This document shows positions 19,857 through 46,801 of a stretch of DNA of 64,000 nucleotides, piece by piece. Every line of letters starts with the position of its first letter. Position 1 is the first letter of the stretch. The stretch comes from a virus (lineage: Duplodnaviria > Caudoviricetes), in the IMG/VR virus record IMGVR_UViG_3300014039_000013, positions 32,001-96,000 of that record; one strand, 5' to 3'. The translations under genes were made by a program, and so were the position numbers. The notes under the pieces are model-generated. The model was not told the DNA's origin and made no database searches. It saw only the letters and a list, made by a program, of their open reading frames with translations.

Positions 19857-20273
19857 TTAATTATTGAATCTTTCAATCTTTATATTTCTTTCTTTTAAAA
19901 TATTATTACATACCCACAAAATAACATTATACACCCTGTCTATTCTGCTTTCTGTAATGTCTTTATATATAATATTACCCTCAGAATCAGAGACAATACC
20001 TGTATTTAAAGTCATGTCTATGCTATAATCAGGGATCTTTTTATTAATTGCATCACATATTCTTAATAAATCACCTAAAGTAAACCGATAATTTACTTTT
20101 AATATATCAGCAAAAAGATTACAATGATATTTTCTAGCATAAATATTATTTATCACATAACTACCATCTTTAGAATCATATATTAAAGAAGCATCATTAT
20201 CGTATATATTATGATCTAACAATTCTCTCATTTGTTCTTTAGTAAGAACTATATCTACAAAGTTATTATTCAT
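19857..20273 (-). CDS. Hypothetical protein
   Basis: 138-aa ORF overlapping the thyX stop. Confidence 0.7.
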   Translation of the reverse strand: MNNNFVDIVLTKEQMRELLDHNIYDNDASLIYDSKDGSYVINNIYARKYHCNLFADILKVNYRFTLGDLLRICDAINKKIPDYSIDMTLNTGIVSDSEGNIIYKDITESRIDRVYNVILWVCNNILKERNIKIERFNN

Positions 20274-26093: not shown

Positions 26094-29000
26094 TTAAAAT
26101 AAACTTAATTGTCCATAATCTTCAATTACATTTTTTATTTTATTAGCTTCTGATATATAAAAATTATAATTAATATTATAATCTTTAATAGGTTTTTCTA
26201 TATATTTATTAAATAATGTTACTGAAAACCCTATATTAACTCCGTTTAATTTGCCGTTAAAATCTTTTAATAAAATTCCACCATTATTAGATATATAATA
26301 TCTTGTTGTTCTATTTAATTTATCGTTGACAATTAAACCTTTATCATTTAAATGTCTAAAATATGGTATAGATTTTGAATTTGTTTTTAATCTTAAACAA
26401 AAATCAAATATGTTTTTATGATTTGTTATAGTTTCTTTAATTGGAATACCATCTACAAAATATTTCTTTAAAGAAATAGGAACAACTTTCATAGAAGGAT
26501 CTTTATAATACTCTTTATCTATTTCAAAGCATCCTTTTAATTTGCAATGATTATTTTCTAGAGTATAATCATCGTATACTGCGATGTAATTATTTACGTC
26601 TCTGATTATCATCTTTTTATAGAATACTTCCTCAATAGTAAGACCTGTTTCTTTAGTTAATTGTTCGTTTGCTTCTCTAATTAAATGTAATTTTGATCTC
26701 GGTATAAGAATTGTTTGTCCATCCTTAACCTTTATATTTTCATATAAAGCCTGACTATATCTTTATATTAATTCCCAATTATATAATTGTTTTATCAGTT
26801 GTTTTGATTTTTTATTAACTAATTCAGATGTATATCCTCTCCACATATTAAAATATTTATCACATTTAGAATAAGAGTCAAATATCATTTCATCACCATC
26901 GACAAAAACTTTAATTTTTTCTTCTGTGACGATAGCTTTTCTATTTTCCAAACCTTTTTATAAACTCCTGTTCTTTTATTTGCTTTTTGTAACGCTTCTG
27001 GAGTAACATTAAAATGGTTACCTGCATCTTTCCATGAATTAAAAAATAATTCTTCATTAGTGTTAATATTAATCATTTTTACTTTAACAGCATTATTCTT
27101 ATTATTTTCTGTAACTATAGATAATGTTTCAGGTGAGTGTTTATATAATGCAGATTTTTCAGCAATTTTTTGCTTCCATTCTTCTGATAGTTTTATTCCT
27201 AAATTAGGCTTACCTCCAACAGTTGGAAATTTACAAATATTGTATTCAGGATTTAATGTTTGTATATAATATTCTTCTCGTTCTAAAATTTCTTGAGATG
27301 TTTTATTATTTAGAATTTCAATCAATTCAACTTTAAAATTATCAATACCATACTTATTGTATGCTCTCCATAATATAGGATGAATATTTTTATGATTTCC
27401 TTTTTTAAATAATTCATAACATCTACAATGTTCTCTAAATCTTTCTTTAAACGATCTATCTGAACTTCCTATATAAAAATGATTATTTATTTTATTAATA
27501 ATTTTATATACTCCGACAGATAATAAATCATCACTATTAATTTCAGTTAAATCAAAATAAATTGTTCTTACATGTTCATTTTTTCATAATTTATTATATT
27601 ATTTAGTTATACAATAAATATATGAAAAATTTGTCAGATCGTCAACTGATAATATAACAATTTTAAAAAATTAATATACTCCGCTTTTCCTACTAAAAAG
27701 TAGTACTCCATAATGGATAGTCGATGAACCTTCTCTATTTAAAGAGCTTGGCTGCGGATTGTCCAATCTTTAATGTTTTTACTATACCTAAAACATTACT
27801 TTTAGTAAATATACAGTAATTAAAGCTTAAGGAGTTTCCCGCAATTAACAGAGTTTTATAACACCAATGGACTATTTAGTGTTACTTTGCAAAAATTTTA
27901 CTTCTGGTACAGCTTTTATCCATCTTTCAGACCACATACATATAAAACATTGACCAGCAATAGTTGTCTTAAACGTATATAATGGATCGTAAAGAAAAGA
28001 TGATTCTTCTTTAGATTTTCCGTATGTACCATTAAGAATAAGCTTGTATCCTTCAATTAACGTTTGATTACGTTCATTTTTAGGTTTATGCTTCTCAGCA
28101 AGCCTATCTTTAATAAACTTTTCATACAGTTTAAGAAACGTAGGTCCTAAATGTTCTGGATAAAGACTTAAAGATTTAGCTATAGATGGATATAGTGACC
28201 CAATGTCGTAATCTACAATTATAAAATCATCATTTGATTCATAAATACCAGGTTTACAACATCCATGACAACCTCCTCCACCAAAGTCAAATTTATAATC
28301 ATGTGTAAGTATACTAAAACCGAAGTTTTTTATACTTTCTGTAGAATTAGGATCTATAATAGACGTATTAACTCTATTTAAAAATTGTTTAAATGGTTCT
28401 GATTGAATATTACACCATTTTGGAATACATTCCTTTAATATTATTTTTTCTCTTGGTGTTTTTAATTGTTTTAATTGTGGTATTGATATTCCTGATGCTC
28501 TAGAATAAAGACTTAATATAAGCTGATATCCCATTGGAACATCACCAAGATTTAATACATTAACTCCAAATTGTTTCTGTATATCTTGTCTTAATTTAAG
28601 TTTATTTTTTCCTTTGTATATTGAATATTCAGTTTTACCAATAGTAACTAAGAAAAATTTATATGTAGAGTATACATCATTAAGATTATATGAGAGTATA
28701 AGGTCTTCGTCCCCCTTTTTACACCAATGCGTATGATGAAGTGGCATTTCTTCTACATTTGGTAAACACATAGCTATTTCTAAATCCTTTAACGAACAAG
28801 CTCTAGCCTTATTATTAAAATGCCAAACCCTATATAGATCTAATTGAGGAATATATTTATTTTTATCAGCTATTGCTGAAAATTCCATTTCAATTATTTC
28901 TTGTGATTTCTTATAAAGCTGTTGAGCTAATTCTTGACCATTTAAATCTTTATATATATCAAAATGTTTAATTAAATGATGTAAAAGAGGATAATCATAT

Positions 29001-29191
29001 GACTCATTATTAAATCCAATCATTAATAATGATTTATCATCATTATTTAAATGATTATATAATTCTAAATAATCGTTTTTCCATTTACAAATAATATATT
29101 GATAATATTTTTTTTCTTTTATATTATAACCTGTATAAGTAAATAGATTTGACAAACATTCTAAATCATATACTTCAAATTTATTAATCAT
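26094..29191 (-). CDS. polB: Family B DNA polymerase split by one group I intron (exons 29191-27878 and 26723-26094; 647 aa)
   Basis: Exonuclease YDLE/GFNNESYD, motif A DIGSLYPS, motif B KLILNGTYG; motif C is restored on splicing as LQSNT|DGQTI; C-terminal RDVNNYIA..KLKG. Confidence 0.9.
26724..27877 (-). mobile_element. Group I intron in polB motif C
   Basis: P1: exon AACACU pairs with GGUGUU (U-G at the splice site). P10: GUCCAUU with exon GAUGGAC. Core UCGACUA and AGAUAUAGUC elements; terminal G at 26724. Confidence 0.88.
26763..27587 (-). pseudogene. Intron-encoded GIY-YIG homing endonuclease with two homopolymer frameshifts
   Basis: GVYKIINKINNHFYIGSS..RFREH..EREEYYI..PEYN. The ATG at 27587 is out of frame by one extra A; a second shift near 26915-26920 joins track ORFs 26885 and 26763. 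Confidence 0.75.
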
Positions 29192-32786: not shown

Positions 32787-34444
32787 AATTCCCATTTTCA
32801 TCCAAGTTAGTACTTCCAAATCCACCCGTACCTCGCTCTGAATCAGAAAGTGTTTCTACCTCGTTCCAATCAATATGAAATACAGGCATTAGAACTGCTT
32901 GTGCAACACGTTCCCCATCTTCAAGCCATACAGTTTCCTGGCCTTGATTCACTACAGGCAAACCCCACTCATTTCTATAACCCATTTTGTAATTTACTCA
33001 GAACTCTTTATTTCTGACTCTAAAATTTCTTCTATAGATTTATTATATCCATCTATTGTTATATTTTTAGTTTGGACTATATAATCATTAATAATATTAC
33101 ATATATTATTAAGCAAGGCACTCGTGTCAGTATTACTTTCCTCAGCTTTACCTGTTCGGAATCGACTGTTAGTCTCTGAACTTTCAAAAATATTACTATT
33201 TAAGCTTAGCTGCTGATTGTCCACTTTTGGAGTTTCCAGCAATTCACCTTGTTTAAGGACGCCAATTATATTATGAATGGAGATTTCTGCAATTTGTAAT
33301 AAATTATTATGTATTGTTTTATGTTGTTTTCTTGTTAATGGAATAAAATTTGAAAGAGCATTATTCGAATGATTTCCATCTATATGATGCACGTTTATAT
33401 TATATTTAGGATTGAATTTTACAATCTTATTTTCTTCTTCGAAAAATACATTATTAAATTTTTTATGATTCCGAAGAACATTAAGCCTGTGTTGTGTAAT
33501 TCTCCCATCTTTGTTAGAATCTGGATATTCTGGAGCGTATACAAACATATCTTCAACATGATTATTCTTCTTTGGTAATGCTCTGTCTTTAAAAGATGCA
33601 TTTATTTTTCCTTTTAATCCATATTGATGATTATTTTTTCCAATAAATGTTGTTTCTTTTAGTTTAGAAGCGCATTCTTTACTACAACAAGGTGTTGATT
33701 TTATACGATTGTAAGAATAGGGTTTTAACTTAAATTCTTTACCACAAATTGGACAGATACAACTAATTTTTTGAGAATATCGTTCACTATTATATTTAGC
33801 AAGACATACTACAGAACAACAATGATAATTCTTAGCTCTACATGGAAGTACATATTCTTCTTTACCACAAGTAGCGCAAACAACTTTAATTCTTTCAACT
33901 TTTGTACCAATCTTTTTCCCTTTTCTTCCTAAATTTGAACATTCCTTACAGCAATATTTTCTTTTACTACTTTGTTTTGCTTCAAATTCTTTTCCACAAT
34001 ATTCACAAATAAATTTTGCCATTAATTATTAATTTTATATTTAACATACTATAAATATAAAATTAAATTAGTAAATTTACACGGAACTATTAATAATTAA
34101 CAAATTTTAGCGTCCACCGTGCCTACACAGTTAATCAAATTTAGACCATTTTTGATACTCAAACCACTTCTTGGACGTAGCTCAACCTGCCATCCTTCGG
34201 GGATAGCTGTAAATATACCAGTAGGAAGAATAGCTCTAGCACCTGGTTCAAGACGAATCATTGTTTTAGAATGAGCTTCACCTGCAAATATAACTTCGGC
34301 ATCACCAAATACTTTAATAGGATTTTCTGGAGTTGTTCTACTAAAATCAATACGAATATCACATCCAGCATCTCCTTTTGTAGCATAATTAGGAAGTTTA
34401 TTTTCAGATTTGTTAATCACATTTACAGTTATTTTCTTTTCCAT
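32770..34444 (-). CDS. dut: Trimeric dUTPase split by a group I intron (exons 34444-34109 and 32982-32770; 182 aa)
   Basis: AGCD, RPRSGLS, motif 3 restored as GTVDA|GYR, ERVAQ, RGTGGFGST. Confidence 0.9.
32983..34108 (-). mobile_element. Group I intron in dut motif 3
   Basis: Exon GGACGCU pairs with GGCGUCC about 840 nt downstream; GGUGAAUUGCUGGAAACUCC, AGAGACUA and AUAUAGUCC core elements; terminal G at 32983. Confidence 0.85.
32994..34022 (-). CDS. Intron-encoded HNH endonuclease with three CxxCGKE..CCSxxC zinc-finger repeats
   Basis: VHHIDGNHSNNALSNF..HKTIH; the ORF runs on through the ribozyme core. Confidence 0.85.
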   Translation of the reverse strand: MAKFICEYCGKEFEAKQSSKRKYCCKECSNLGRKGKKIGTKVERIKVVCATCGKEEYVLPCRAKNYHCCSVVCLAKYNSERYSQKISCICPICGKEFKLKPYSYNRIKSTPCCSKECASKLKETTFIGKNNHQYGLKGKINASFKDRALPKKNNHVEDMFVYAPEYPDSNKDGRITQHRLNVLRNHKKFNNVFFEEENKIVKFNPKYNINVHHIDGNHSNNALSNFIPLTRKQHKTIHNNLLQIAEISIHNIIGVLKQGELLETPKVDNQQLSLNSNIFESSETNSRFRTGKAEESNTDTSALLNNICNIINDYIVQTKNITIDGYNKSIEEILESEIKSSE

Positions 34445-34751: not shown

Positions 34752-36092
34752 TTATTGATAAATATATACATTGTGTCTTGCACGTGATAAAGCTACATAC
34801 TGAAGTTGTCGTTTCATTTCAGAATCATAGCAGGTATTAATATCTTTCATATCTACATAAATATTATTCAAAGTACTTCCTTGTAATTTATGCACTGTAA
34901 CTGCATAACCTTTATTAAAAGATTTACCTCGAATTAATCTATTATCATAGTATAAATCTCTAGAAGATGCAAAACTATTTATTGTATTAAAATATTGTTT
35001 CCATCTTTTAGATTTCTGATAATTAGTTTTTGACTCTAAAGCAAAAATTCTTAATGATTCAATTGTATAAGCTAATGCAATATATTCATTATCGTTTAAT
35101 GTATTAGAAATTATATTTATATTTCCATATTCTTTTGTTCCAGTATCAAATAAAGTTAATTTGAATCCTGGAAGAGTATGATAATTAGGAATATTAATAT
35201 CTATTGATGTAACATTTTTAATAATATAATCCATAGAATTATAATATTGAAAATTATTAAACAATAGATTTTCATTTCCCATTAGAATTTCTAATTTATG
35301 ATATTCTTCAGAATCATTAAATATAGCCTTAGTTAAATATTCATTATAATTGTTAACTCTGCTATTTTTAAATGCTGTTATTTTAGCTTCAAAAATATCT
35401 TCATTTTTTATAGCATTATAAATTCCATTTTTACAAAGATTAAAAAATGATTTAAAATCAGACTCACAGAGAAGACTTCCGTCTTCACCAATAGAAGTAT
35501 TAAACTTATTTATAGGATGCTCTCTGAGAATCTGTAAAGTATCTAAAATGGCATTTTTTTCTGATTGTCTAAAGATTTTTGTAAGAACAATTTGATTTTT
35601 TAAAGTATAAACTTTACTTTTATTTTCTGATTTTACAGGAGCGAGTTGTTTAGAATCTGATACAAAAAGCATTTTTGTATTAAGTTCTTCACATTTTTGT
35701 TTTAATAAATCAAACAAATCATCATTAATCATTGAACCTTCATCACAAATCACAATTCCATTTTTTGGAATTTCTTTTGAACTTTTAGATTGAAATATTA
35801 AGTCATTAAAATCTAATTCAAAAATATCTAATTTAGGAGAAAGAGACAATAATTTATGTAATGTCATTGCTTCTCTGTGTGTATAATGCTCAAGTACTGT
35901 TTTGGCTTTATGAGTTGGCGCACATAAACAATATTTAATATGCTCTGATTCTAAATATTGAATAATATATGAAATTAATAAACTTTTTCCACTTCCTCCA
36001 GCCCCACAAAGACTAATAGCAAAATCTTTATTTTTTAAAAATAATTTAATTTGCTCTAAAGCATTTACTTGTTCATCACTTAACTTTATCAT
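34752..36092 (-). CDS. SF1 helicase (Dda/RecD-like)
   Basis: GAGGSGKS, APTHKA, DEGSM, QLAPV, IFRQ, YAVTVHKLQGST, YVALSRA. Confidence 0.9.
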   Translation of the reverse strand: MIKLSDEQVNALEQIKLFLKNKDFAISLCGAGGSGKSLLISYIIQYLESEHIKYCLCAPTHKAKTVLEHYTHREAMTLHKLLSLSPKLDIFELDFNDLIFQSKSSKEIPKNGIVICDEGSMINDDLFDLLKQKCEELNTKMLFVSDSKQLAPVKSENKSKVYTLKNQIVLTKIFRQSEKNAILDTLQILREHPINKFNTSIGEDGSLLCESDFKSFFNLCKNGIYNAIKNEDIFEAKITAFKNSRVNNYNEYLTKAIFNDSEEYHKLEILMGNENLLFNNFQYYNSMDYIIKNVTSIDINIPNYHTLPGFKLTLFDTGTKEYGNINIISNTLNDNEYIALAYTIESLRIFALESKTNYQKSKRWKQYFNTINSFASSRDLYYDNRLIRGKSFNKGYAVTVHKLQGSTLNNIYVDMKDINTCYDSEMKRQLQYVALSRARHNVYIYQ

Positions 36093-36451: not shown

Positions 36452-36632
36452 TTGTAAACCCTTTAATTGATGTTTTATTAGTATTTTTTTCTTCTCCTAA
36501 TTCCTCTCTAACTTTGACATTAGTTGTATATCTAATATCTTGATAGATGGGTTTATTAAAAAGATAATGAGTTATATTACATATTGCTTTTCCTTTTTCA
36601 AAGTACTCTTTACCTTCCCTTTTGTAAATCAT
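36444..36632 (-). CDS. Hypothetical protein
   Basis: 62-aa ORF overlapping both neighbours. Confidence 0.5.
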   Translation of the reverse strand: MIYKREGKEYFEKGKAICNITHYLFNKPIYQDIRYTTNVKVREELGEEKNTNKTSIKGFTND

Positions 36633-37155
36633 AAAGTATTACTGTGTTATTATTAATAGACTTCTTCACATCAATAATTCTTTGATTTGAACTACCTCTC
36701 CAATAAAGATTTAAATCCTTTCGTTCTTCTATAAATTTACCATCAATGAGTACATCTATATAATTAAGAACCTCGGGTTCATTTTTTAATATATCTTCAT
36801 AAAGATATCCAGTCCATAACCATACTGGTTTGTTAGAAGCCTTACACATTTTCAATAATATTCTAACATTAGAAATACTATCTGCTATATAATCACTATC
36901 GAAGTTTAAATCATCCTTCATTATCCAATATAAAGGATCACCTCCTAATATAGAGATACCATCAATTTTTGGATTATCCACACATCTCTGAATTTTATCA
37001 GCAACGTCTATAAAATTAACTCCTGCTAATGGATTCCAAGTCTGAGGAGACCAGCATCCTTTACAACGGTTATTACATCCTGCTAACCAGATACTGCATC
37101 TAATTCCAGGGCCATTAACAACATCATATTGTTGATACTTTAGTATTTTAAGCAT
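36610..37155 (-). CDS. nrdG: Anaerobic ribonucleotide reductase activase (radical SAM)
   Basis: NGPGIR..GCNNRCKGC, GGDP, WTGY, DVLIDG, RGSSNQR. Confidence 0.95.
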   Translation of the reverse strand: MLKILKYQQYDVVNGPGIRCSIWLAGCNNRCKGCWSPQTWNPLAGVNFIDVADKIQRCVDNPKIDGISILGGDPLYWIMKDDLNFDSDYIADSISNVRILLKMCKASNKPVWLWTGYLYEDILKNEPEVLNYIDVLIDGKFIEERKDLNLYWRGSSNQRIIDVKKSINNNTVILYDLQKGR

Positions 37156-37447
37156 TATTTAATATATTTTTGATTATATTAAGATTTTCATTTGATAATG
37201 GATTTAATTCTAATTGTTCAGTTATTTCATTATACTGATCTAGAAAATCACAATATCTTGGATCATATCCTTCAATATTGCTTTCAAAGACATTTTCACT
37301 AAACATATTATTTTCAATATAATTAATTATATCTGATAAAGTAAAATACCCATCATGTCTAGCTTCATTAATTATATCTTTTAATAATTTAGGCATATTA
37401 AATGTTACCTCGGTTGGTAAATTTAATAATATAGTAATATTATCCAT
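37148..37447 (-). CDS. Hypothetical protein
   Basis: 99-aa ORF between nrdD and nrdG. Confidence 0.6.
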   Translation of the reverse strand: MDNITILLNLPTEVTFNMPKLLKDIINEARHDGYFTLSDIINYIENNMFSENVFESNIEGYDPRYCDFLDQYNEITEQLELNPLSNENLNIIKNILNNA

Positions 37448-37455
37448 AAGTATAT

Positions 37456-37484
37456 AAAAATAGCCAGATTTTACTCTGGCTATT
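37456..37484 (-). terminator. Intrinsic terminator after nrdD
   Basis: AATAGCCAGA/TCTGGCTATT stem followed by a U tract on the minus strand. Confidence 0.7.
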
Positions 37485-37490
37485 ATTTTA

Positions 37491-40400
37491 TTAAAAATGT
37501 TTTACGCGATTATTTATGTCTGCTATTCTTCCTTTAGAAATACCATTAGTTAGAATACCAATATCATTTATACCCCACCTTTCAGTGTATTTATTTTATT
37601 ATTAAAATAAATTTCTATATTATTTTTTTCTATATCCGAAAGCTTACTAATTTCAGATTGAATTACTTTGTCATTTTCTTTAAATCTAAATTCTTTTTGA
37701 AAATAAACTTCACATAAATAACGTAAATATACAGCTTCTTCTTTTTTATTAAATTGCTTAAAGTAATATCTTACATTTTTATATCTAAAGTCTATTTTCC
37801 ATTTAGAATTAGATTTAATTTGAATAACTCCTCGAAATCCTGATTTATTATTTTTACATTTATCCATATTTAACTGGTTGTCTTCTTTATTTATAATACG
37901 TAAATTAGATTTACGATTATCTAAAGAATTTCCATTAATGTGATCTATTTCTTTATTTACAGGATTTCCCATTATCAATCTATGAAAATATTCTTTTTGT
38001 GATATTTGATTACCTGTAACCAGATATGGTTTTTCACCATTATCTTTTAATATGGTTCTCCATTTAAATTTTTTAGCTTCTTCTAAATTATCTTTATCAA
38101 ATATATATGTAAATAATACATTTCCGTGTTGGTCATATGTATCTATTTCACAATAATTGTCTAATACTCGTATTTCATTTGGATCAAATACACCTCTTGA
38201 ATTTGTGTCTAAATTATGTCCAAATTTTATAAACTGATGCATATGTTTTTTTACATAAAAACATATTAAATTTTTTACTGTAATTGACAATTTTTTCATC
38301 TGAAGATATTCCACAAATATCACAAAATTTAGTAGTTTTTCGCATATAAATATAGTTTAAATTAGTAATAAGGGATTAGACTATACCTTCATCTAAATTA
38401 GATGCGCCTTGGTAGTCGTTGAGAGCTTCCCAGTAACTATATAAATATACGTATATAATTTGGGATTCCAAAATTATATTAACATTTAGTTAATAGGCTA
38501 TCTCTGCTGATTGTCCAATTTTCTTAATTTTTTAACATTCAAGCTTATTCTTTACAAATTACTTTGTAGTTTAAGAAACTTTAGGAGTTTCCAGCATATT
38601 CAGCGTTTTCTATATATATCACTATATAAAGGGGCATATTAGTTTACCCGCATAACCTGCGTTCTGCATACAATTTATGTCTATCGGTCTCTCCACAATT
38701 AGGACAACTAAGATTACCTTGATTATCCATATGAATTTCTCCTTCATAGCCACAAGTATAACATACATCGCACGAAGTGGTATTTAACTCACAGTACATC
38801 ATATTATCATAAATACATTTCATAATATTTAGTACTGCTTCTGGGTTTTTACGTATATCTGGCATTTCGCAATAACTTATACACAATTTTTACTTTTTAA
38901 TTTATTAACTACATACTCTTTTATAGATAAAAACTGAGATTTTTTAATTTTATTTTTAATAATTTTTTCTTTTTTCTTTTGTTCAGAAGTATTTTGAAAC
39001 TCTTTAAATAATATTTTCTCAGCAATATATCTAGCACATACAGCTTCTTCTATTGTATACCATCTACATAAATGTATTCTACTTTTACCAAATCGAATTT
39101 CTGCTGCCCATTGATTTCTTGATTTATCTAAATATACACCAATGTAATTAGAAGTATTATTAGACATAAATGTCTTATTGCAAACATTTTCAAATTGTTT
39201 ACAAATACGTAGATTAGACCTACAATTATTTAAAGGATTACTATCAATATGGTCAACAACCTCATCATCTTTCGGATTTAATAATATTCTGTGAAGCCAT
39301 GTTGTTGGATTTGTTTTTGTACAATTTCCTGTAACAATGTATCCTTTTGAACTTAGTCTCCATTTTTTATATTTAATTAAATCTATATCAGATTTATCTA
39401 TTATAAATTCTGTAACCTTTTCATTTCTTTGATTATATACATTAAATATTGCAATATCATTTTTAATAATATAATCATTAAAATCATTAGTTGTTCTAGG
39501 ATTATTGTCTAGAGGTTTACCATATTTATGTATTTGATGCATATGTTTAGAGCATACATCTTTATATCCTTTTAAAGTATATACTTTTGTATTTTTTCTA
39601 TTACATATACTACATGTGCCTATTTTTATTGTATGTGACATAAATTAAAAATTAAAATTAGACTATATCTTCTTAGTAGCGGAATCCGCCTTTTAAGCTG
39701 TGCGCTTGGAATAGGTAATCACTTCCTATCCTACAGGGTTACACTCATCACCCTTAGTCGTTACACCTTCAAGAATTAAAAAATTCAAGCTTGGCACGGT
39801 ATTATCAAAAAGACTTCACCGTTAGCTATTTATAAAAATAACACCCTTGATTAAAAGTTCACACAGTTTTAGGAAGCTGTATTACCAACCTCCTGATGAA
39901 TATTCTTGAAAAGGAGCTTCAAATTCTATCTTTGAATACCCATCAATCTTATATTCTACAGGTATATGATAGCTATTAGTTATATAATCTCTATCATTAA
40001 CATGTTTTTCTATAGGAAATTGTTTTAAAGCATTAGCAAATTTAGTAACAGTGGCTTCTGCAGGAGTACCATATAAAGATAATGCTAAATGATACTTTTC
40101 TTTATTTAAATTAGTTCTATCATACATATGTTTTAATATATCAAGACCTAATTGTTGTCCTTCTTTAGTGCCGTACTCTTTACCAAAATGATAAACACAT
40201 TCTGCAATACCCATATAACCTATAGATGCAGAACAATATTCATCTTTAATAGCTTCACCTATTTTACTTCCTACAGGTAATCTTGCAAAAGCCCCATAAT
40301 TCCAAAGTATAGGAGCTACATCTGTATTTACATTAGATATTTGATTAAATATCTTATTTTGTTCAGAGGAAATCTTATCAATTATATCATCTAACTTATT

Positions 40401-43400
40401 TAAAAAATCATTATAATCTTTTGATTCTAATGCTAGATAAGGTAAATTGATAGAAATTACACCAATGTTTACAATCGATCTCTTATTACTAAGAGGATTA
40501 GACTATCTCTTCATTGTTATTTTCAACAATGCTGTGCACTTCGGATAGTGATAAATTCTATCCTACTGGCTTACACTCATCAGCCATAGTCGTTACACTT
40601 CTAAAATGTTCTAAATTTTTAATATTACCATAATCCAGAACTTCATATCTTTTATTAAACCATTGTCTAATAAACCAACGTTTAATAGAACCATTTTTAG
40701 AAGAATGTCCATCGTATTCAATAAATTTAGATAAAGGGCAAAAAGTTAGCACTGCGTTATTATTTTCTTTATCTTTAACAGTAATATACTTTATACTGCT
40801 TATTTTATGACCATTATTATAACAATCTTTTATATTATCTTTTTGATCACCTATGTGTAAATTTTCAACTCTATTATCTAAAGAGTTATCATTAATATGG
40901 TTAACTTGTTCTCCTTCTTTTAATGGCCTCATCCATACTTCTGCAATAATTCTATGCAATGCAATATGTTGTTGTTTATGTGTAGTTTTATTAAGAATGT
41001 CTATATATTTATACATTTTATTTCTTGTTTTTCTACACATTGGTTTTAATAAAGTTTTTGAATAAACAGAATATACATCACCTAATTTATTTACATAATA
41101 CCAAGTGTCTCTAAACTATTTAAATTCTTGTTCATTAATAATTATAGTATTCATACTCAAAAATATTTTTGTAGTTTATAATTTTAAAAGCACGGTATTG
41201 ACCCATATAGGTTTTCACCGTTAGCAAGCAATTAAGCTCACACCGTTTTTTCTTACGTTCACACAGTTTAATGACGGCTAAACGATTTGGTCAACCGTCC
41301 CCAGAATTTATACTTACCATCTTTATCTTTCCAAGGATGAAGGAAACTTCTGCACATTTAATCATTTGTCGCCAAATGAACTGACTATATATTCTACATT
41401 TATGATGTAGTCTCCTGTTTCGAGTTTGTGCTTATCTCAAACTCTACTGGCTTACACTCATCAGCCATAGTCGATACACATTTAGGAATATTTTATTCCA
41501 TTTAGCACGGTCTCATCTTATTTAAAAGACCTAACCGTTAGCCCTTAAAGGACACCTCTAAGCGAGTTAAGGAGATTTTACATGGGCTACATATTTCACT
41601 TACCCATGCTTGGAAAGACATTTCCTTCTTTATATTTCTTCATAATCTTAGCTGAAATATAATCAGGAACCATTCTTTTGCATGTACATTCTGCTGCCAA
41701 CTTAGTTACATCATAGTATTTAGTTCCAGGATTTATATTATCTTCATCAAGAACATAGATGAGTTTCAATTTGTTAATCAATATGTTTCCATATTGTTCA
41801 GACTATCTCTTCAATGTGTGGCGCTTCGTAATTAGGGGTTTCACCTAAAAACTACTTCCGTTTCAGGAATAGTCGTTACACTTCTTCTTTATATTTCCAA
41901 ATATATCCGTATGCTGATTTTGCTTTTCCATTACAACAAGCACTTATATTACTGTTTGCTTTTGGATTGCTTGTTAAATCTTTCGTTATAAGCCATTTTG
42001 TAGCTTCGGTCATACTTTTAAATTCTTGTAGGAATTTATTACTTAAATCATACTGTTGTATAGCTTTCCATAAATGAAGTTTTGGTTTTTTAAATTGAGC
42101 CATCATGTTATCACTTACTTTTCTATCATTAAATGACCACTCGTATTGAATATTATATGATGTAGTACACCATTCTAGATTTTTTACATCATTATTTAAC
42201 GGATTACTATCTTTACGATTTATTACTTCATAATTATTTGGATTAGGAATAAAAGCAAAAGCCACAAGTCTATGAACTAAAAATTTGCGAGTTTTATTAT
42301 TAATTCTTAAATCTACACATTCATAACCTTTATTGTTTATATAAGATTTTAAGATTTTTTCTTTTATTTTATAATATCTATCATGTCCAGTATCATAAAC
42401 TAATCTTGATAAAGATTTAATTTTACCTGATTTACTCACAGCATAATTTTCAGTTATTCCAGTTAAAACTTTAAACTTTTCTTCCATATATAAATATTTA
42501 GCACGGTATTATCAGCTATCTATATTATAGACCTTAGATTCTCTTAGTCAGTATATTCGTGAATTATTTATTTTCCCTTATTTCCACTGATACCGTTAGC
42601 ATTAATTAATTAACACACCCTGTATTTACAGGTTCACCACATTTTACTTCCCCAAACAGTTTTAGGGAAGGCTGGATTAATGATATTTCCATTAGGACCC
42701 TTCATTCCTTTAATCCTTTGATTAAATATTTCTTTTATAAGAGCTACATTCTCTTTAGCATAATTATCATTCTCATGTATATAACAGAATACAGAGCAAA
42801 ATGGGCTTTGCACGCCCTCTATATGTTACCATATAGTTTAGACTATCTCTTCACCCTCATCATTACATGTTAGGGGTAAGGCGCTTCGTAATTAGGGGTT
42901 TCACCTAAAAACTACTTCCGTTTCAGGAATAGTCGTTACACTTTCTCTATTATTTATAGAGCTTAGCACGGTATTAACTACATATTTATATTTTTCTAAT
43001 ATATTATCATATATTTTTGGAGCTTTTATATATTGAATAATATGTTTTTCTCCATATCTAAATTTATGATTAAACAAAGAATCTTTTTCTTCTACAACAT
43101 GTACGAATACTTTCTAATTTAAATCTAGTTAACCTCGAAGCTGATTCAAGATCTTTATATTTCTTATTTTCAGTAAAATCAAGTATATAGTTTACATTTC
43201 GTTCACTTATAGGAAGGTTTACAATAACAGGTTTATCGTTTTCTAAATATCTATATATGTTTATAAGCAGAGTGTCTATCTCCTCTTGCTGATGCGCATA
43301 TTTTTGTTACTCCTGATGCACCTAATCCTAAATGAATACTGGCTTCTGTAGCACTATCAAATATTTCTCCAGTTGTTATGTCAATAATAGGTTTAGAAGA

Positions 43401-45963
43401 TGGACTTAATTTACCTTTTTTACCATACATATGATTTTTACTGCCAAGTTGTGCTTCACCTATTTTCTTTTTGGTTTCTTTAGAATGTTTACCTGTTGAA
43501 TTTCCACCATTTTCTATATTATATCCAATATTATGATCCTGTGTATTAAATTCTAAAATATATTTTGTTTCTAATATATTCATTTCTTCTTGAGTTTCTA
43601 TATTATCTACTAATATTTCAAATTCAAAGTTTTCAAAATCATATTTTTTTATTGCTTTTATAATAGGTCTAGATGTGTCTGGAGATTTAAATTTAGTATC
43701 AGATTTATAATTTCGTATTCTGTCTTTTAATTTCTAAGTTGTTTGTCCAATATAAATTTTATTGTTGATTTTATTAGTAATTTTATAAATTAACATAGTC
43801 TTCACCGTTAGCATTAATAATTAAGTTATCAATGTAAATGTATGAAATTTATGGTCAATATCAAAATTATTAACACACCCTGCATTTACAGGTTCACCTT
43901 ATAATAATCTTATAAATTACTTTATAAGACGGCCAAATTGACCATTCGTACTTGTCATTGAGTTAAGTTGATAAAGTAATGTTTGCATACTATCAACTAT
44001 TTCTTTATTCAGAAACTTGTTTACAAGCTTATTTTTTTCATTTGGAGATAAATCCTTAAATTGCTCTTCGTAATATTCTTTACTACTGCGAACAAATGGT
44101 GCTAAATGAGCTAAAGTAATACTTACTCCCACCAAAATATAATTTGTATCTTATATAATGGCAGACTATTTCTTACAGAAATTTGTATTTTTCTGTGGAC
44201 ACGTTTCCATTAAATTTTAATTTAATGTACTCTCTTTCGAGATAGTCGTTACAATTATATTAATTTATCAATAACTTTAATATTATATTTTTCAGGATTG
44301 TCTATATATCGTCTAGCTTGTGTTTCAGATTTACCTATAAATCTAGCGTAAGCAGCTATAGTTTTAAATATATATTTATTATTATAAATAATTGTCCATC
44401 TATTAGGAGTTCCTATATTTTTCTGTCTTTTTAATTTATTATATGCGTGTAAATTATTATAAGATTGAGAAACCCATTCAAGATTAGAAGCATCATTATT
44501 CTGAACATTTCCATCTTTATGATTTATAGTATTATTAATTTCACTATATCCATCACAAAAATTAAATCCAACTAATCGTGCTACTTGAAGATTTTCTTTT
44601 TTATCATTATTACATAAAGTTACATAAAATCTATTAGATTTTTGATTAGGGCTTAATGTTAATAAATAAAATTTGTTATAACTTATAGCAAAATGTTTAA
44701 CTCTACCTTTATTAGAAATTTCATAACCATCATACCCTAATATGGGTTTCCAGATTTCTCCTTCTATAGGTTCTATATTATAAAGTCTAGAACTTTTTTC
44801 TATCTTATCATTTATAATATTATTATGTTTTTTAGATAACTTTTCTCTATATTCTTCTACAGCACTTATTAAATCATTATCTAATTTATAAGTATACAAT
44901 AACTTAGAATAAGGTATATTAATTTCTTTAGAAATATCTTTTAAAGAAATATTATTTTTTAATCTTGATATTATTAGATTTTTATACTTATTTATAAATT
45001 TCTTGTTAGATGGAGTTATTCTTTTAACTTTTAATTTTTCAAATTCCCAATCTTTTAATTGTAGTCCTAATTTCTTTCTATTTAATTTTAATAAATTACT
45101 GATATATACTGTACTTTTGCCTTCTTTACAGTATAATTGATATATAGTATCTTTTAATTCTAATATTTTGTTATTCATAGCATTCCACTATTTAAAATTA
45201 ATATAATCACGAGATTTAAATATTCCATTTATCCCTCGTTAGCTTTGAAACTTAATTCAAAACCCTTATTAGGTTAGTGTCCTTTTAATACGGCAGATTA
45301 AAATGGGAAACCGTATTGGCTCGAACTTACGGCAACAAGTATTTGAGTTGCAATGGTTGTAGCCGTTCTTAGTGAATGAGGCTTTTCGATGAGTTTGCCA
45401 TTAATAACTGTTCCATTTTGAAGCATATCTTCTAAGTTAATTAATGAGCAGTTGCTCATTCCATGCATAAATCTATAATCTGTATCATGAATATGGATTG
45501 CACCTTTTTCATGTAATTTAAGTAGTTCTTTGTTACACTCTAATTCTTTATATAGCTTCTTGCAAACTTCTCCAGCTACTAAATCGCGCATTACATTAAA
45601 TTGTTTAGGATTTTTATTTCCATTTTCATTAGTAACCTTGTTAGTTTTTCCAGAAACTATTTCTTCAATAGTAGTATTAAACTTATTAGAATCAGCTATA
45701 TTCCTAGCAAGTTTATGCTTATATCTATAAAGAATATACTCTTTTGCTACTTGTTGATAATCATAATTCATAAGTAGCTCTTCTATCTGATCTTGTATTT
45801 CTTCAATACTCATCTTATCCCAAATATAAACAGAATTATATATATCTTCTATAACAGTGCTATTAATATCTATTTTACACTGTTTAAAAGCTCTATACAA
45901 AGCTGTTTTGATTCTATTGGGATCAAATTCCTGTAAATTACCTTTTCTATCTGTAACTTTCAT
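37491..45963 (-). CDS. nrdD: Class III anaerobic ribonucleotide reductase NrdD in eight exons (703 aa after splicing)
   Basis: Exons 45963-45310, 44129-43941, 42810-42664, 41766-41602, 41354-41294, 40471-39888, 38883-38646 and 37564-37491 total 2112 nt in frame. Splicing restores ATP-cone, IHIHD, QYG|G, NG|QSPF, FP|KL, MG|CR, GRLNIGV, SGG|CISY, CxxC..CPxC and RLCGYIG. Confidence 0.92.
37565..38645 (-). mobile_element. Group I intron 7 of nrdD, splitting the Tyr codon after the glycyl-radical Gly
   Basis: P1 GGGU/GCCC; P10 AAUAU/AUAUU; core GCUGGAAACUCC, ACGACUA, GUAUAGUC; terminal G at 37565. Confidence 0.85.
37568..38345 (-). CDS. Intron HNH-AP2 endonuclease, N-terminus frameshifted in an A7 run
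   Basis: IDHINGNSLDNRKSNLR plus AP2-like SGFRGV..KW. The likely start MRKTTKFCDICG..LCKK|HMHQ at 38345 matches paralog 38877-39641 but is one base out of frame. Confidence 0.75.
38877..39641 (-). CDS. Intron HNH-AP2 homing endonuclease
   Basis: VVDHIDSNPLNNCRSNLR, SNYIGV..QWAAEI; N-terminal CxxC..CxxH. Confidence 0.85.
   Translation of the reverse strand: MSHTIKIGTCSICNRKNTKVYTLKGYKDVCSKHMHQIHKYGKPLDNNPRTTNDFNDYIIKNDIAIFNVYNQRNEKVTEFIIDKSDIDLIKYKKWRLSSKGYIVTGNCTKTNPTTWLHRILLNPKDDEVVDHIDSNPLNNCRSNLRICKQFENVCNKTFMSNNTSNYIGVYLDKSRNQWAAEIRFGKSRIHLCRWYTIEEAVCARYIAEKILFKEFQNTSEQKKKEKIIKNKIKKSQFLSIKEYVVNKLKSKNCV
38884..39887 (-). mobile_element. Group I intron 6 of nrdD
   Basis: P1 GGAGGU/GCUUCC; P10 AUACA/UGUAU; GAAGAUAUAGUC at about 39661-39672; terminal G at 38884. 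Confidence 0.85.
40472..41293 (-). mobile_element. Group I intron 5 of nrdD
   Basis: P1 GACGGU/GCCGUC; P10 GUUUA/UAAAC; terminal G at 40472. Confidence 0.87.
40498..41154 (-). CDS. Intron HNH endonuclease using TAG=Gln (218 aa; the track shows only 40558-41040)
   Basis: MNTIIINEQEFK(TAG 41116-41118)FRDTWYYVNKLGDVYS..HRIIAE..VNHINDNSLDNRVENL; second TAG at 40558-40560, then TAA at 40498-40500. Confidence 0.75.
41355..41601 (-). mobile_element. Group I intron 4 of nrdD, 247 nt, no ORF, at MG|CR
   Basis: P1 CAUGGGU/GCCCAUG; UCGACUA and AUAUAGUC core; terminal G at 41355. Confidence 0.87.
41767..42663 (-). mobile_element. Group I intron 3 of nrdD
   Basis: P1 CUUCCCU/GGGGAAG; GAAGAGAUAGUC; terminal G at 41767. 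Confidence 0.87.
41876..42487 (-). CDS. Intron NUMOD4-HNH-NUMOD1 endonuclease, probably inactive
   Basis: YAVSKSGKIKS, VHRLVAFAFIPNP, INRKDSNPLNN..NLEW (expected catalytic His replaced by Arg), SAYGYIWKY. Confidence 0.82.
   Translation of the reverse strand: MEEKFKVLTGITENYAVSKSGKIKSLSRLVYDTGHDRYYKIKEKILKSYINNKGYECVDLRINNKTRKFLVHRLVAFAFIPNPNNYEVINRKDSNPLNNDVKNLEWCTTSYNIQYEWSFNDRKVSDNMMAQFKKPKLHLWKAIQQYDLSNKFLQEFKSMTEATKWLITKDLTSNPKANSNISACCNGKAKSAYGYIWKYKEEV
42811..43940 (-). mobile_element. Group I intron 2 of nrdD
   Basis: P1 AUGGU/GCCGU; core nearly identical to intron 3; terminal G at 42811. Confidence 0.85.
43007..43796 (-). pseudogene. Intron GIY-YIG endonuclease with a TAG at codon 21 and C-terminal frameshifts
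   Basis: MLIYKITNKINNKIYIGQTT(TAG 43734-43736)KLKDR..AIKKYDFENF..GYNIENGG, NUMOD3-like HSKETKKKI; apparent frameshifts near 43250 and 43085. The end coordinate is approximate. Confidence 0.7.
44130..45309 (-). mobile_element. Group I intron 1 of nrdD
   Basis: P1 AAUACGGU/GCCGUAUU; ACGACUA and AAAUAGUC; terminal G at 44130. Confidence 0.85.
44255..45178 (-). CDS. Intron HTH-NUMOD4-HNH endonuclease
   Basis: EIWKPILGYDGYEISNKGRVK, TINHKDGNVQNNDASNLEWVSQSYNNLH. Confidence 0.85.
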   Translation of the reverse strand: MNNKILELKDTIYQLYCKEGKSTVYISNLLKLNRKKLGLQLKDWEFEKLKVKRITPSNKKFINKYKNLIISRLKNNISLKDISKEINIPYSKLLYTYKLDNDLISAVEEYREKLSKKHNNIINDKIEKSSRLYNIEPIEGEIWKPILGYDGYEISNKGRVKHFAISYNKFYLLTLSPNQKSNRFYVTLCNNDKKENLQVARLVGFNFCDGYSEINNTINHKDGNVQNNDASNLEWVSQSYNNLHAYNKLKRQKNIGTPNRWTIIYNNKYIFKTIAAYARFIGKSETQARRYIDNPEKYNIKVIDKLI

Positions 45964-45972
45964 AATGTATAA

Positions 45973-46015
45973 AATATCCCAGACTATAAAATATATATTT
46001 ATAATCTGGGATATT
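45973..46015 (-). promoter_or_regulatory. Long hairpin immediately upstream of the nrdD start
   Basis: AATATCCCAGA-TATAAA..TTTATA-TCTGGGATATT inverted repeat; could be a terminator or a translational operator. Confidence 0.55.
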
Positions 46016-46024
46016 CAATATAAA

Positions 46025-46801
46025 TTAAAGTGATAATATTTTCTTTAAGAGCATTGTTTTTTCAAACTGATTCATAATATCCTTTTTTAATGAATCAGTA
46101 ATACATTGAGTAAAAGCATTATACACATTAAACATATTAGTATCTTTCTCTCCTACATAATATGGAGATTTTTCATTAGAATACAATAGTTTATATGCAG
46201 ATTCTGCTACTGATGAAGCTAATTTAATTTTTCCAAATCCATTATCTTCATATTCAACCATACAACGTTTAATCCAATTACCCAATTGTTCAGATGTATT
46301 TCTATAATCAGAATCAAATGGAGTATCAAGCATTTGTTTTAATGTAACTGCAATGCTGTTAACTTCTTCCAACATTCTATTTACTGGTTTAAAATTCATT
46401 GGTGAATTTGATTCTAACTCCTTAACTTCTAAATCATCAGGATTAAATACACAAAGATTAGTACAAGCCATATTTAATCCACCAGTATAAATTTTATAAA
46501 TTGGTTTTCTAACATCCAATCCATATACTAAACCAATAACTTGTTTATGATTTTTAAAATTTAATTCATTAGGTAAAACTGCTTGAATCCATACTCTATT
46601 ATAAGTTATATCTTCAGTAGTAATTTTTCCATCAGAATCAAGGGTTACTTGATTTGGAAGTTGAACCTGAACCCTAAAATCATCAGTTATATTATGAAGT
46701 CTTTCTAGAAATGGATTAATATATGCTTCTGTTGGTAAATATTCATTATTTTTAATTCGCGTTGCTTTTCCTTTTAAAAGTTCATTTATAGTAATTTCCA
46801 T
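46025..46801 (-). CDS. DUF932-like conserved phage protein
   Basis: ACTNL..FNVYNAFTQ pattern. Confidence 0.65.
   Translation of the reverse strand: MEITINELLKGKATRIKNNEYLPTEAYINPFLERLHNITDDFRVQVQLPNQVTLDSDGKITTEDITYNRVWIQAVLPNELNFKNHKQVIGLVYGLDVRKPIYKIYTGGLNMACTNLCVFNPDDLEVKELESNSPMNFKPVNRMLEEVNSIAVTLKQMLDTPFDSDYRNTSEQLGNWIKRCMVEYEDNGFGKIKLASSVAESAYKLLYSNEKSPYYVGEKDTNMFNVYNAFTQCITDSLKKDIMNQFEKTMLLKKILSL

What the first reader, a model, noticed from the sequence alone, without database searches (positions are those of the whole stretch)
37491..45963. nrdD interrupted by seven group I introns
Seen: 2112 coding nt spread over 8473 nt. Each intron has a U-G P1 helix and a terminal G, and sits in a conserved motif, including MG|CR and the glycyl-radical CG-Y. 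Exons are as short as 61 and 74 nt, and six introns carry endonuclease ORFs (HNH or GIY-YIG). Known: RNR genes are intron hotspots, but seven in one phage gene is very high. Inference: cumulative splicing could limit or time dNTP supply, and exon skipping is possible.
Basis: partly seen in the sequence, partly recalled or inferred. Interest (0 to 1): 0.72.

Follow-up and report, generated by a model that had tools for sequence, protein, structure and literature searches.

The report
Phage nrdD with seven group I introns
The gene for the oxygen-sensitive enzyme that makes DNA building blocks in this 160-kb gut-type phage really is cut into eight pieces by seven self-splicing (group I) introns, the heaviest intron load in one phage gene that I could find, but of a kind already known for this intron-rich phage group.

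Summary
Observation confirmed to the base. On the minus strand, 45963-37491, eight exons (654, 189, 147, 165, 61, 584, 238, 74 nt) add up to 2112 nt. A related viral contig (L003) carries the same gene uninterrupted. It is also exactly 2112 nt and aligns without a gap at 84% identity, so all seven junctions are fixed. Every intron has a U.G-closed P1, a terminal G and a P10 pairing that fits only its own downstream exon. I1-I6 share a T4 sunY-like core (P3, P4, P7, P7.1, P7.2, P8) with compensatory changes; I7 is a different type. Rfam's group I model matches six of seven, always below its cut-off. Five introns carry HNH genes, one a GIY-YIG gene and one has no ORF. The GIY-YIG gene and one HNH gene are full length only if TAG is read as Gln, as in this phage's late genes. 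Relatives carry 0, 0, 1, at least 2 and 3 introns, so the introns are mobile. Caveats: I3 lacks P8, splicing is not shown, and the haplotype comes from a metagenome assembly. The regulatory idea (timing of dNTP supply) is untested. Earlier notes of this scan reported five introns plus an intein in another phage's nrdD. Verdict: an extreme new member of a known kind.

The parts
45310..45963 (-). nrdD exon 1 (654 nt, aa 1-218, ATP-cone and N-terminal barrel, ends ..SSSQYG)
   Evidence: tblastn with intact NrdD; PDB NrdD hits at E 3e-28; junction coordinates
44130..45309 (-). Intron I1 (1180 nt), group I, sunY-like core. HNH/NUMOD4 ORF at 45178-44255 lies in the P6 region.
   Evidence: P1 8 bp with U.G; P3 GGACAC/GUGUCC; P4, P7, P7.1, P7.2, P8, P9 verified. 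Held-out hit of model R1, 38.0 bits, E 1.4e-5. Pfam NUMOD4 and HNH_3. No RF00028 hit.
43941..44129 (-). nrdD exon 2 (189 nt)
42811..43940 (-). Intron I2 (1130 nt), group I, the only one with a P2. GIY-YIG/NUMOD3 ORF at 43814-43233 (193 aa with TAG=Q; TAG at codon 27) starts in P4/P5.
   Evidence: Helices; RF00028 35.1 bits, E 1.7e-8 on its 3' part; R1 40.6 bits; GIY-YIG at E 1.9e-8 across the TAG
42664..42810 (-). nrdD exon 3 (147 nt)
41767..42663 (-). Intron I3 (897 nt), a paralog of I2, with HNH/NUMOD4 ORF at 42487-41876. The P8 hairpin is missing.
   Evidence: 80% identity to I2 over 139 nt and 94% over 35 nt. P3 UGUGG/CCACA is compensatory against I2's UAAGG/CCUUA. RF00028 25.8 bits; R1 38.4 bits, with P8 reduced to 2 pairs.
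41602..41766 (-). nrdD exon 4 (165 nt, ends ..PSMG)
41355..41601 (-). Intron I4 (247 nt), ORF-less complete group I ribozyme
   Evidence: RF00028 over the full model, 19.4 bits, E 0.0064 in a 276-nt search. MFE z-score -4.5. All helices P1-P9 verified.
41294..41354 (-). nrdD exon 5 (61 nt, CRSFLHPWKDKDGKYKFWGR, holds the Cys of the MGCR motif)
40472..41293 (-). Intron I5 (822 nt). HNH ORF at 41040-40558 (160 aa), or 41160-40498 (220 aa) with TAG=Q. The ORF's 3' end overlaps P7/P7.1.
   Evidence: RF00028 34.5 bits, E 1.1e-7 on the 3' part. 97% identity to I4 over 36 nt and 81% to I6 over 80 nt. Helices. HNH_3.
39888..40471 (-). nrdD exon 6 (584 nt)
38884..39887 (-). Intron I6 (1004 nt). The whole core lies in the first 246 nt. 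The HNH-AP2 ORF at 39641-38877 fills the 3' part and runs 7 nt into exon 7, as in T4 sunY.
   Evidence: RF00028 26.7 bits, E 4.1e-5. Helices. 99.7% identical to the intron at the same site in L004 and 92.8% to that in L005.
38646..38883 (-). nrdD exon 7 (238 nt, Zn-ribbon, ends ..RRLCG)
37565..38645 (-). Intron I7 (1081 nt), a different group I type with P2 and no P7.1/P7.2. The core lies in the first ~320 nt. The HNH ORF at 38323-37568 ends 3 nt before the 3' splice site.
   Evidence: RF00028 22.9 bits, E 7.3e-4. Homologs at the same CG|Y site in L007 (84% identity), L004 and Enterocloster phage CB457P1. Conserved P4/P5/P6 with compensatory pairs. P10 of 8 bp.
37491..37564 (-). nrdD exon 8 (74 nt, completes the Tyr codon of the glycyl-radical CGY motif; stop codon at 37493-37491)
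37459..37484 (-). Terminator-like hairpin 7 nt after the nrdD stop
36610..37155 (-). nrdG (activating radical-SAM enzyme), downstream partner of nrdD
   Evidence: Pfam Fer4_12 at E 2.6e-36, plus Radical_SAM

Best explanation
This is a functional class III ribonucleotide reductase gene (nrdD) of a 160-kb, 27% GC phage that recodes TAG as Gln. Seven group I introns have invaded it at seven conserved motifs. The gene is transcribed as one pre-mRNA of about 8.5 kb. Each intron folds and pairs the last bases of its upstream exon with an internal guide (P1, closed by U.G). Exogenous guanosine attacks the 5' splice site. The same guide aligns the downstream exon (P10), and the terminal G marks the 3' splice site. 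Seven such reactions yield a 2112-nt mRNA for a 703-aa NrdD, which NrdG activates. I1-I6 form one structural family related to the T4 nrdD (sunY) intron: P7.1 and P7.2 lie between P7 and P3', plus extra small hairpins between P3 and P4. I2/I3 and I4/I5/I6 are close paralogs, so the ribozyme scaffold has spread to new sites within this gene. I7 belongs to a separate family that occupies the CG|Y site in several phages. Six introns carry homing-endonuclease genes that copy them into intron-less alleles during co-infection, which explains the presence/absence pattern in relatives. Shown here: the exon map, the junctions, the RNA helices, the covariation, the endonuclease domains and the polymorphism. 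Inferred: actual self-splicing, homing, and late-only translation of the two TAG-containing endonuclease genes.
For: The spliced protein aligns end to end with intact NrdD at 47% identity, with no gap at any junction. An uninterrupted allele of identical length (2112 nt) in L003 is collinear at 83.9% nt identity. dN/dS against it is 0.12, and the exons contain no in-frame stop. P1 with U.G and a terminal G are present in 7/7. Cognate P10 is 3-8 bp in 7/7, against a non-cognate mean of 0.74; only 1 of 5040 permutations reaches the observed sum. All core helices were verified in canonical order. Model R1, trained on I4, I5, I6 and T4 sunY, finds the held-out I1, I2 and I3 at E about 1e-5 in the whole window. 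In the fitted alignment, 96.7% of cells pair against 68% in shuffles and 29-45% in slid controls, and 12 of 19 pairs show compensatory change. RF00028 is the best or only significant Rfam match for I2-I7. An in-frame stop lies 0-9 codons into every intron. HNH and GIY-YIG domains were found. Relatives carry 0, 0, 1, at least 2 and 3 introns, and I6 is 99.7% identical to L004's intron while the flanking exons are 80-89% identical. nrdG lies downstream.
Against: No RNA data, so splicing is inferred. All Rfam scores (19-35 bits) are below the family cut-off of 50, whereas the T4 sunY control scores 105. The searches of the whole window and of the whole region found nothing. I1 has no RF00028 match at all. 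I3 lacks P8, which the literature lists as a mandatory pairing (PMC3873408), so it may splice poorly or need help. The sequence is a metagenome-assembled genome, so the seven-intron haplotype could be a composite of intron-polymorphic strains. The covariation alignment was fitted to the model.
Confidence: 0.85

Rival explanations
1. The introns are group I, but at least one, most likely the P8-less I3, no longer splices. This nrdD copy would then be a recently inactivated pseudogene, or would depend on a helper (an RNA chaperone or trans-acting factor).
For: I3 lacks the P8 hairpin that its paralog I2 has: 23 nt are replaced by 3 nt. P8 is listed among the mandatory pairings (PMC3873408). No other copy of the P8-less sequence was found in viral contigs. 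No close relative of the I3 endonuclease was found either.
Against: All eight exons are intact, with no stop or frameshift over 2112 nt. dN/dS is 0.12 against the uninterrupted allele. I3 keeps P1, P3 (with changes compensatory to I2), P4, P7, P7.1, P7.2, P9, a 4-bp P10 and the terminal G.
Confidence: 0.15
2. The seven-intron arrangement is an assembly composite. Each intron is real, but they are spread over co-occurring strains, and no single genome carries all seven.
For: The genome is a metagenome-derived virus record. Close relatives are polymorphic for these very introns. I6 is nearly identical in another contig.
Against: The internal exons are short (61-238 nt for five of the six), so neighbouring introns lie within one read or read pair. 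The contig is complete, with terminal repeats. Exon sequence is continuous and consistent in divergence from L003 across all junctions.
Confidence: 0.08
3. The introns have been co-opted as a regulatory device. Seven serial splicing steps delay or gate NrdD production, or exon-skipped isoforms are made.
For: There is precedent for condition-dependent splicing of T4 introns (Sandegren & Sjoberg 2007, cited in PMC3653736). Twort orf142 shows exon skipping among similar introns (cited in PMC3073962). E2, E3 and E4 are multiples of 3 nt, so skipping them would keep the frame. The guide of I4 can pair 6 bp with the start of E7.
Against: Close relatives manage with 0-3 introns at the same gene, so the introns are dispensable. 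P10 with the next downstream exon is only 0-2 bp. The skippable exons encode conserved core segments. There are no expression data.
Confidence: 0.1
4. The interruptions are not group I introns. They could be inteins, group II introns, or free-standing endonuclease genes that split nrdD into separately translated pieces.
For: Split nrdA/nrdD genes and inteins do occur in phages (PMC3653736; earlier notes of this scan).
Against: Stops in all frames rule out inteins. No reverse transcriptase or maturase domain was found. Pieces of 61 and 74 nt begin mid-codon and have no start codon. Group I cores are present in every insert.
Confidence: 0.01

Closest known systems
Bacteriophage T4 nrdD (sunY) group IA2 intron with I-TevII
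   Same: Same host gene. The core architecture matches, with near-identical elements: the P7 strand CAACGACUAU, the P7.1 loop GAUGARUGUA, P7.2, GAAAC-P3', and J8/7-P7' AAGAUAUAGUC. As in I6 and I7, the endonuclease ORF lies 3' of the catalytic core and ends at the 3' splice site.
   Different: T4 has one intron, at a different site, around aa 260 of this protein. T4 has a P2 and no hairpins between P3 and P4. It carries a GIY-YIG gene, whereas I6 and I7 carry HNH genes. T4 scores 105 bits with RF00028, against 19-35 bits here.
Staphylococcus phage Twort orf142: three similar group I introns in one gene, with exon skipping (Landthaler & Shub 1999, PMC22036, as cited in PMC3073962 and PMC11878797)
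   Different: Three introns against seven. Splicing is experimentally shown there and only inferred here.
Zeta-group crAss-like phages (Yutin et al. 2021, PMC7886860)
   Same: Genomes of 145-192 kb, stop-codon recoding of late genes with suppressor tRNAs, and an 'unprecedented' density of group I introns and inteins in core genes. This phage (160 kb, TAG=Gln, tRNA-CUA, many introns) fits that description.
   Different: The paper's worked example is an MCP gene in five fragments, and its maximum is 14 introns plus 3 inteins per genome. Here one gene alone holds seven. I did not test membership of this phage in the Zeta group.
Jug phages of the gut (PMC12880540)
   Same: nrdD is fragmented by group I introns and endonuclease genes in 95 of 104 genomes, and splicing is confirmed for many introns by metatranscriptome reads.
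   Different: Their example nrdD is in four fragments, their introns average ~206 nt, and they use no alternative code.
Brochothrix phage A9 nrdE (three introns plus an intein; PMC3653736) and Bastillevirinae polymerase/terminase genes (up to three introns; PMC11878797)
   Same: Multiple self-splicing elements stacked in one nucleotide-metabolism or replication gene.
   Different: Lower counts, and different genes and intron families.

Membership tests
Group I intron (Rfam RF00028) | P1 helix between the end of the 5' exon and an internal guide, with U.G at the splice site | tested here: met
   7/7: 4-8 bp, last exon base T opposite a guide G, guide 7-15 nt into the intron
Group I intron (Rfam RF00028) | Terminal G at the 3' splice site and P10 pairing of the guide with the 3' exon | tested here: met
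   All seven introns end in G. Cognate P10 is 3-8 bp, and only 1 of 5040 permutations is as good.
Group I intron (Rfam RF00028) | Conserved core pairings P3, P4, P5, P6, P7, P8, P9 in canonical order, with J8/7 | tested here: met
   Met for I1, I2, I4, I5, I6 and for I7. Covariation was checked. Exception: I3 has every element except P8, so this feature is inconclusive for I3.
Group I intron (Rfam RF00028) | Score at or above Rfam's gathering threshold (50 bits) | tested here: not met
   Scores: I4 19.4, I6 26.7, I7 22.9, I5 34.5, I2 35.1, I3 25.8 bits; no hit for I1. Nothing was found in the whole-window or whole-region searches. The T4 sunY control scores 105 bits. The curated threshold is a property of the model, not of the RNA class.
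Group I intron (Rfam RF00028) | Precise excision restores the host reading frame | tested here: met
   The spliced CDS has the same length (2112 nt) as the uninterrupted allele in L003 and aligns to it without gaps.
Group I intron (Rfam RF00028) | Guanosine-dependent self-splicing | not testable with these tools
   Needs in-vitro transcription with GTP labelling, or cDNA.
Subgroup IA (T4 td/sunY-like) | Extra helices P7.1 and P7.2 between P7 and P3' | tested here: met
   Present in I1-I6, with compensatory changes. Absent from I7, which is therefore not filed here.
NrdD, class III (anaerobic) ribonucleotide reductase | End-to-end homology, including the MGCR cysteine motif, the C-terminal Cys4 zinc ribbon and the RxCGY glycyl-radical motif, with an adjacent nrdG activase | tested here: met
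   Alignment to intact NrdD proteins; PDB NrdD hits; nrdG at 36610-37155
Homing endonucleases (HNH, GIY-YIG) | Catalytic domain signature in an ORF inside the intron | tested here: met
   HNH_3 is above its cut-off in I1, I5 and I7, and below it in I3 (23.7 bits) and I6 (20.3 bits), cut-off 24.8. NUMOD4 in I1 and I3. GIY-YIG plus NUMOD3 in I2 with TAG=Q. Nuclease activity and target sites were not tested.

The most novel reading that the evidence does not exclude
The seven-intron haplotype is real and fully spliced, and it records active spread of one ribozyme scaffold within a single gene: I2 to I3, and I4/I5/I6, each picking up a different endonuclease gene in a different loop. On this reading the phage's late TAG-to-Gln recoding acts as a timer for at least the I2 GIY-YIG homing endonuclease (TAG at codon 27), so the nuclease is made only late. 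This would be analogous to the late-promoter control of T4 intron endonucleases, but achieved through the genetic code. I3 would then be a natural group I intron that works without P8.
Probability: 0.25. Interest if true: 0.65.

Novelty: new member of a known kind. Interest (0 to 1): 0.5.

Why it matters
It sets a practical upper mark for how many self-splicing introns a single essential phage gene can tolerate: seven in 2.1 kb, with 75% of the locus being intron. Because uninterrupted and partly interrupted alleles exist in close relatives, it also gives a ready-made natural series (0 to 7 introns) for studying homing, co-conversion and the cost of serial splicing. For annotation, it shows that standard pipelines will miss such genes. 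Rfam at its default threshold finds none of the seven introns, and an ORF caller sees eight fragments. I also found that a published Enterocloster phage NrdD is annotated as truncated at the same CG|Y intron site. The TAG-containing endonuclease genes link two features of these phages, intron load and late stop-codon recoding, in a testable way.

Tried and rejected
1. Rfam over the whole window at gathering threshold, and over 37000-46500 at E<=10, found no group I hit. I rejected this as evidence of absence, because narrow searches of single cores then gave full-length RF00028 matches.
2. RF00028 on the 3' part of I1 gave no hit, only a spurious RT-6 match. Assignment of I1 rests on model R1 and the hand-checked helices.
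3. Megablast and blastn of the locus and of I4/I6 against GenBank phages gave only 39-76-nt core matches in Staphylococcus and Vibrio phages and none for I4. No close relative is in that collection.
4. A first five-sequence MAFFT alignment of the 3' cores (A1) misaligned P8 and was not used. A2 was used instead.
5. An exact-pattern scan for the P8-less I3 junction in viral contigs found 0 matches.
6. Relatives of the I3 HNH protein are at most 43% identical, and only 3 of 80 loci carry an R1-type core. This says nothing about P8.
7. The T4 intron site was compared and is not one of the seven.
8. The sigma-70 promoter scan was at chance level.
9. Inteins, group II introns and genes-in-pieces were considered and rejected (see rivals).
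10. Literature phrase searches found no phage gene with four or more group I introns described as such. The library is incomplete, so this is not proof of a record.
Full report
**What is there.**
Six-frame translation and ORF listing of 37.4-46.0 kb show NrdD-like fragments on the minus strand, separated by stop-rich inserts that carry endonuclease-like ORFs. A tblastn with two intact phage NrdD proteins mapped eight collinear pieces. The proteins were Enterocloster phage CB457P1 (L001) and a gut contig, MT835508 (L002). Reading the junctions on the minus strand gave one consistent solution, in which every upstream exon ends in T and every insert ends in G.
- Exons: E1 45963-45310, E2 44129-43941, E3 42810-42664, E4 41766-41602, E5 41354-41294, E6 40471-39888, E7 38883-38646, E8 37564-37491. 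Their lengths are 654, 189, 147, 165, 61, 584, 238 and 74 nt, 2112 nt in all.
- Introns: I1-I7 are 1180, 1130, 897, 247, 822, 1004 and 1081 nt.
The 703-aa product aligns end to end with intact NrdD at 47% identity, with no gap at any junction. It restores SSQYG|G, TNG|Q, AFP|K, MG|CR, GR|LN, GG|CISY and the glycyl-radical CG|Y.

**Independent proof of the junctions.**
A scan of viral contigs with exon 6 returned five related loci.
- L003 carries the gene uninterrupted. It is also 2112 nt and aligns to the spliced window CDS without a single gap, at 83.9% nt and 86.5% aa identity. All seven joins are in register.
- L006 is also uninterrupted.
- L007 has an intron only at site 7.
- L005 has introns at sites 1 and 6; its contig starts inside the site-1 intron.
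- L004 has introns at sites 6 and 7, plus a different intron 4 nt upstream of site 4.
dN/dS between the window gene and L003 is 0.12, and the exons hold no in-frame stop and no TAG. So the interrupted gene looks functional.

**Are they group I introns?**
Rfam at default settings found nothing. That reflects its filters and the ORF insertions. When single cores were searched, RF00028 was the top match over the full model:
- I4: 19.4 bits, E 0.0064.
- I6: 26.7 bits, E 4e-5.
- I7: 22.9 bits, E 7e-4.
- I5, 3' half: 34.5 bits, E 1e-7.
- I2 and I3, 3' parts, in the whole-genome search: 35.1 and 25.8 bits.
- I1: no hit.
All of these are below the 50-bit cut-off, while the T4 sunY control scores 105 bits. 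I therefore tested structure directly.

A script confirmed perfectly complementary P1, P3, P4, P7, P7.1, P7.2, P8 and P9 in canonical order in I1, I2, I4, I5 and I6. The long-range P3 takes five different sequences: GGACAC/GUGUCC, UAAGG/CCUUA, UGUGG/CCACA, UCUCC/GGAGA and CUGUG/CACAG.

I built a covariance model of the P7-P7.1-P7.2-P3'-P8-P7' module from I4, I5, I6 and T4 sunY only. With filters off it found the held-out I2, I3 and I1 in the 64-kb window at E 4e-6, 1e-5 and 1.4e-5. The next hits were at E about 0.5. On 10 distinct family members, 96.7% of cells pair, against 68% in shuffles and 29-45% when partners are slid. Twelve of 19 pairs show compensatory change. The caveat is that this alignment was fitted to the model.

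The segment just 5' of each guide pairs with the first 3-8 nt of its own downstream exon (P10). The non-cognate mean is 0.74 bp, and only the true assignment, 1 of 5040 permutations, reaches the observed total. Each intron also has an in-frame stop 0-9 codons past the 5' splice site, a trait noted for bacterial and phage group I introns (PMC3984707).

I7 has P2 and no P7.1/P7.2. It shares conserved P4/P5/P6 and P7 elements with introns at the same CG|Y site in L007, L004 and Enterocloster phage CB457P1.

**Anatomy and relationships.**
- I1-I6 resemble T4 sunY closely, down to the P7.1 loop GAUGARUGUA.
- They differ from T4 in two ways. All except I2 lack P2. All have one or two small covarying hairpins between P3 and P4, which fits the optional 'P3.1' of the literature (PMC3873408).
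- I2 and I3 are paralogs: 80% identity over 139 nt and 94% over 35 nt. I4, I5 and I6 share their P7-P7.2 region at 73-97% identity. So one scaffold has colonised several sites of this gene.
- The endonuclease genes differ in type and position. HNH/NUMOD4 lies in P6 of I1 and I3. GIY-YIG lies in P5 of I2. HNH lies in P6 of I5 and runs into P7.1. HNH-AP2 lies 3' of the core in I6 and I7 and reaches the 3' splice site, as I-TevII does in T4.
- I6 is 99.7% identical to L004's intron, although the flanking exons are only 80-89% identical. This indicates recent horizontal movement.
- Exon bases next to the introns differ from the intron-less allele in ways that create P10. At J2 the window has CAAAGC and L003 has CAGTCA, which is synonymous. 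At J6 the window has TGTATAAGT and L003 has GCAATTTCG. This is consistent with co-conversion.

**Link to recoding.**
Earlier notes of this scan said that this genome reads TAG as Gln in its late genes and encodes a tRNA-CUA. ARAGORN finds that tRNA at G000 114254-114343.
- With TAG=Q the I2 ORF grows from a catalytically headless 110 aa to 193 aa. The GIY-YIG domain then matches across the TAG at codon 27.
- The I5 HNH ORF gains a 40-aa NUMOD4-like N-terminus that holds a TAG at codon 15.
- Under the standard code, I2 would give only a 26-aa peptide.
Late-only translation is therefore a reasonable but untested inference. A plain nonsense mutation in a decaying endonuclease gene is the alternative.

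**Weak points.**
- I3 lacks P8: 23 nt of I2 are replaced by 3 nt. P8 is counted as mandatory (PMC3873408).
- No RNA evidence exists.
- The genome is a metagenome assembly, complete with terminal repeats. A composite haplotype cannot be excluded, although five of the six internal exons are at most 238 nt long.

**Comparison with what is known.**
- Group I introns in phage RNR genes are classic, and nrdD is the most often split (PMC3653736).
[quoted passage not shown] Their worked example is an MCP gene in five fragments (PMC7886860). Jug phages have nrdD in four fragments (PMC12880540). Both show the same phenomenon.
- Twort orf142 and the Bastillevirinae genes reach three introns per gene (PMC3073962, PMC11878797).
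- My phrase searches found no phage gene described with four or more group I introns, but the library is incomplete.
This genome also has further group I cores elsewhere. RF00028 hits lie at G000 153665-153872 (53.7 bits), window 27678-27856 next to DNA polymerase fragments, and G000 156949-157150 and 154079-154149. More P7 motif pairs were found as well. That makes at least 11 introns in all.

**Verdict.**
The observation and the main interpretation are correct. The case is an extreme member of a known kind, not a new mechanism. The regulatory inference stays open. The P10 data argue against easy skipping of neighbouring exons, and relatives with 0-3 introns show that the introns are dispensable.

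Noticed in passing
window 27678-27856 (-), next to ORF 27872-29191: RF00028 match of 47.1 bits (E 4.5e-12, model positions 47-158) directly downstream of a 439-aa DNA polymerase fragment (PHROG 1252, profile positions 53-457 of 663). The polymerase gene is probably also split by a group I intron.
   Followed up: partly
window 33069-33182 (-), inside or next to ORF 32994-34022: A P7/P7' motif pair (GAGACTAA ... TATAGTCC) and a weak R1 hit (E 0.65) beside a 342-aa HNH endonuclease ORF, just downstream of a Dda-like helicase fragment (34752-36092). This is likely another intron with a homing endonuclease.
   Followed up: no
window 20266-22170 (-): A single 634-aa ORF combines an HNH endonuclease segment (aa 271-467) with a thymidylate synthase C-terminal segment (aa 560-627). 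It looks like an intron ORF or intein fused in frame to a thyA exon.
   Followed up: no
G000 153665-158628 (+), outside the window: A cluster of group I cores: RF00028 hits of 53.7 bits at 153665-153872, 24.9 bits at 154079-154149 and 35.2 bits at 156949-157150, plus P7 motif pairs at 156747-156826 and 158571-158628. The late region is intron-rich too.
   Followed up: partly
L001 5108-5400 (Enterocloster phage CB457P1, OP172753.1): The deposited nrdD CDS ends ..RRTCGLTL* because an unannotated 293-nt ORF-less group I intron sits after the first base of the Tyr codon of the CGY motif. This is the same site as I7. The last exon (..YIGTHYWNYGRTEEIRDRFVHLGDNEN) follows.
   Followed up: partly
L004 about 9664-9931: A relative carries a different ORF-less intron 4 nt upstream of the window's site 4 (it splits AT|G of the Met codon in the MGCR motif). 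Two intron families thus target overlapping sites next to the catalytic cysteine.
   Followed up: partly
window 43233-43814 and 40498-41160 (-): Two of the six intron endonuclease ORFs contain 5'-proximal in-frame TAG codons (codon 27 of the GIY-YIG ORF, codon 15 of the long HNH form). The nrdD exons and the other four endonuclease ORFs have none. This fits the 'amber gate on nucleases' noted earlier for this genome.
   Followed up: partly
window 37148-37447 (-): A 99-aa ORF with no Pfam match lies between nrdD and nrdG, after a strong terminator-like hairpin (37459-37484).
   Followed up: no
L004 8508-9665 versus 9935-12845: L004's NrdD is mosaic relative to the window: 60% aa identity over residues 3-384 but 80-89% downstream. 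This suggests recombination within the gene, possibly linked to homing.
   Followed up: no
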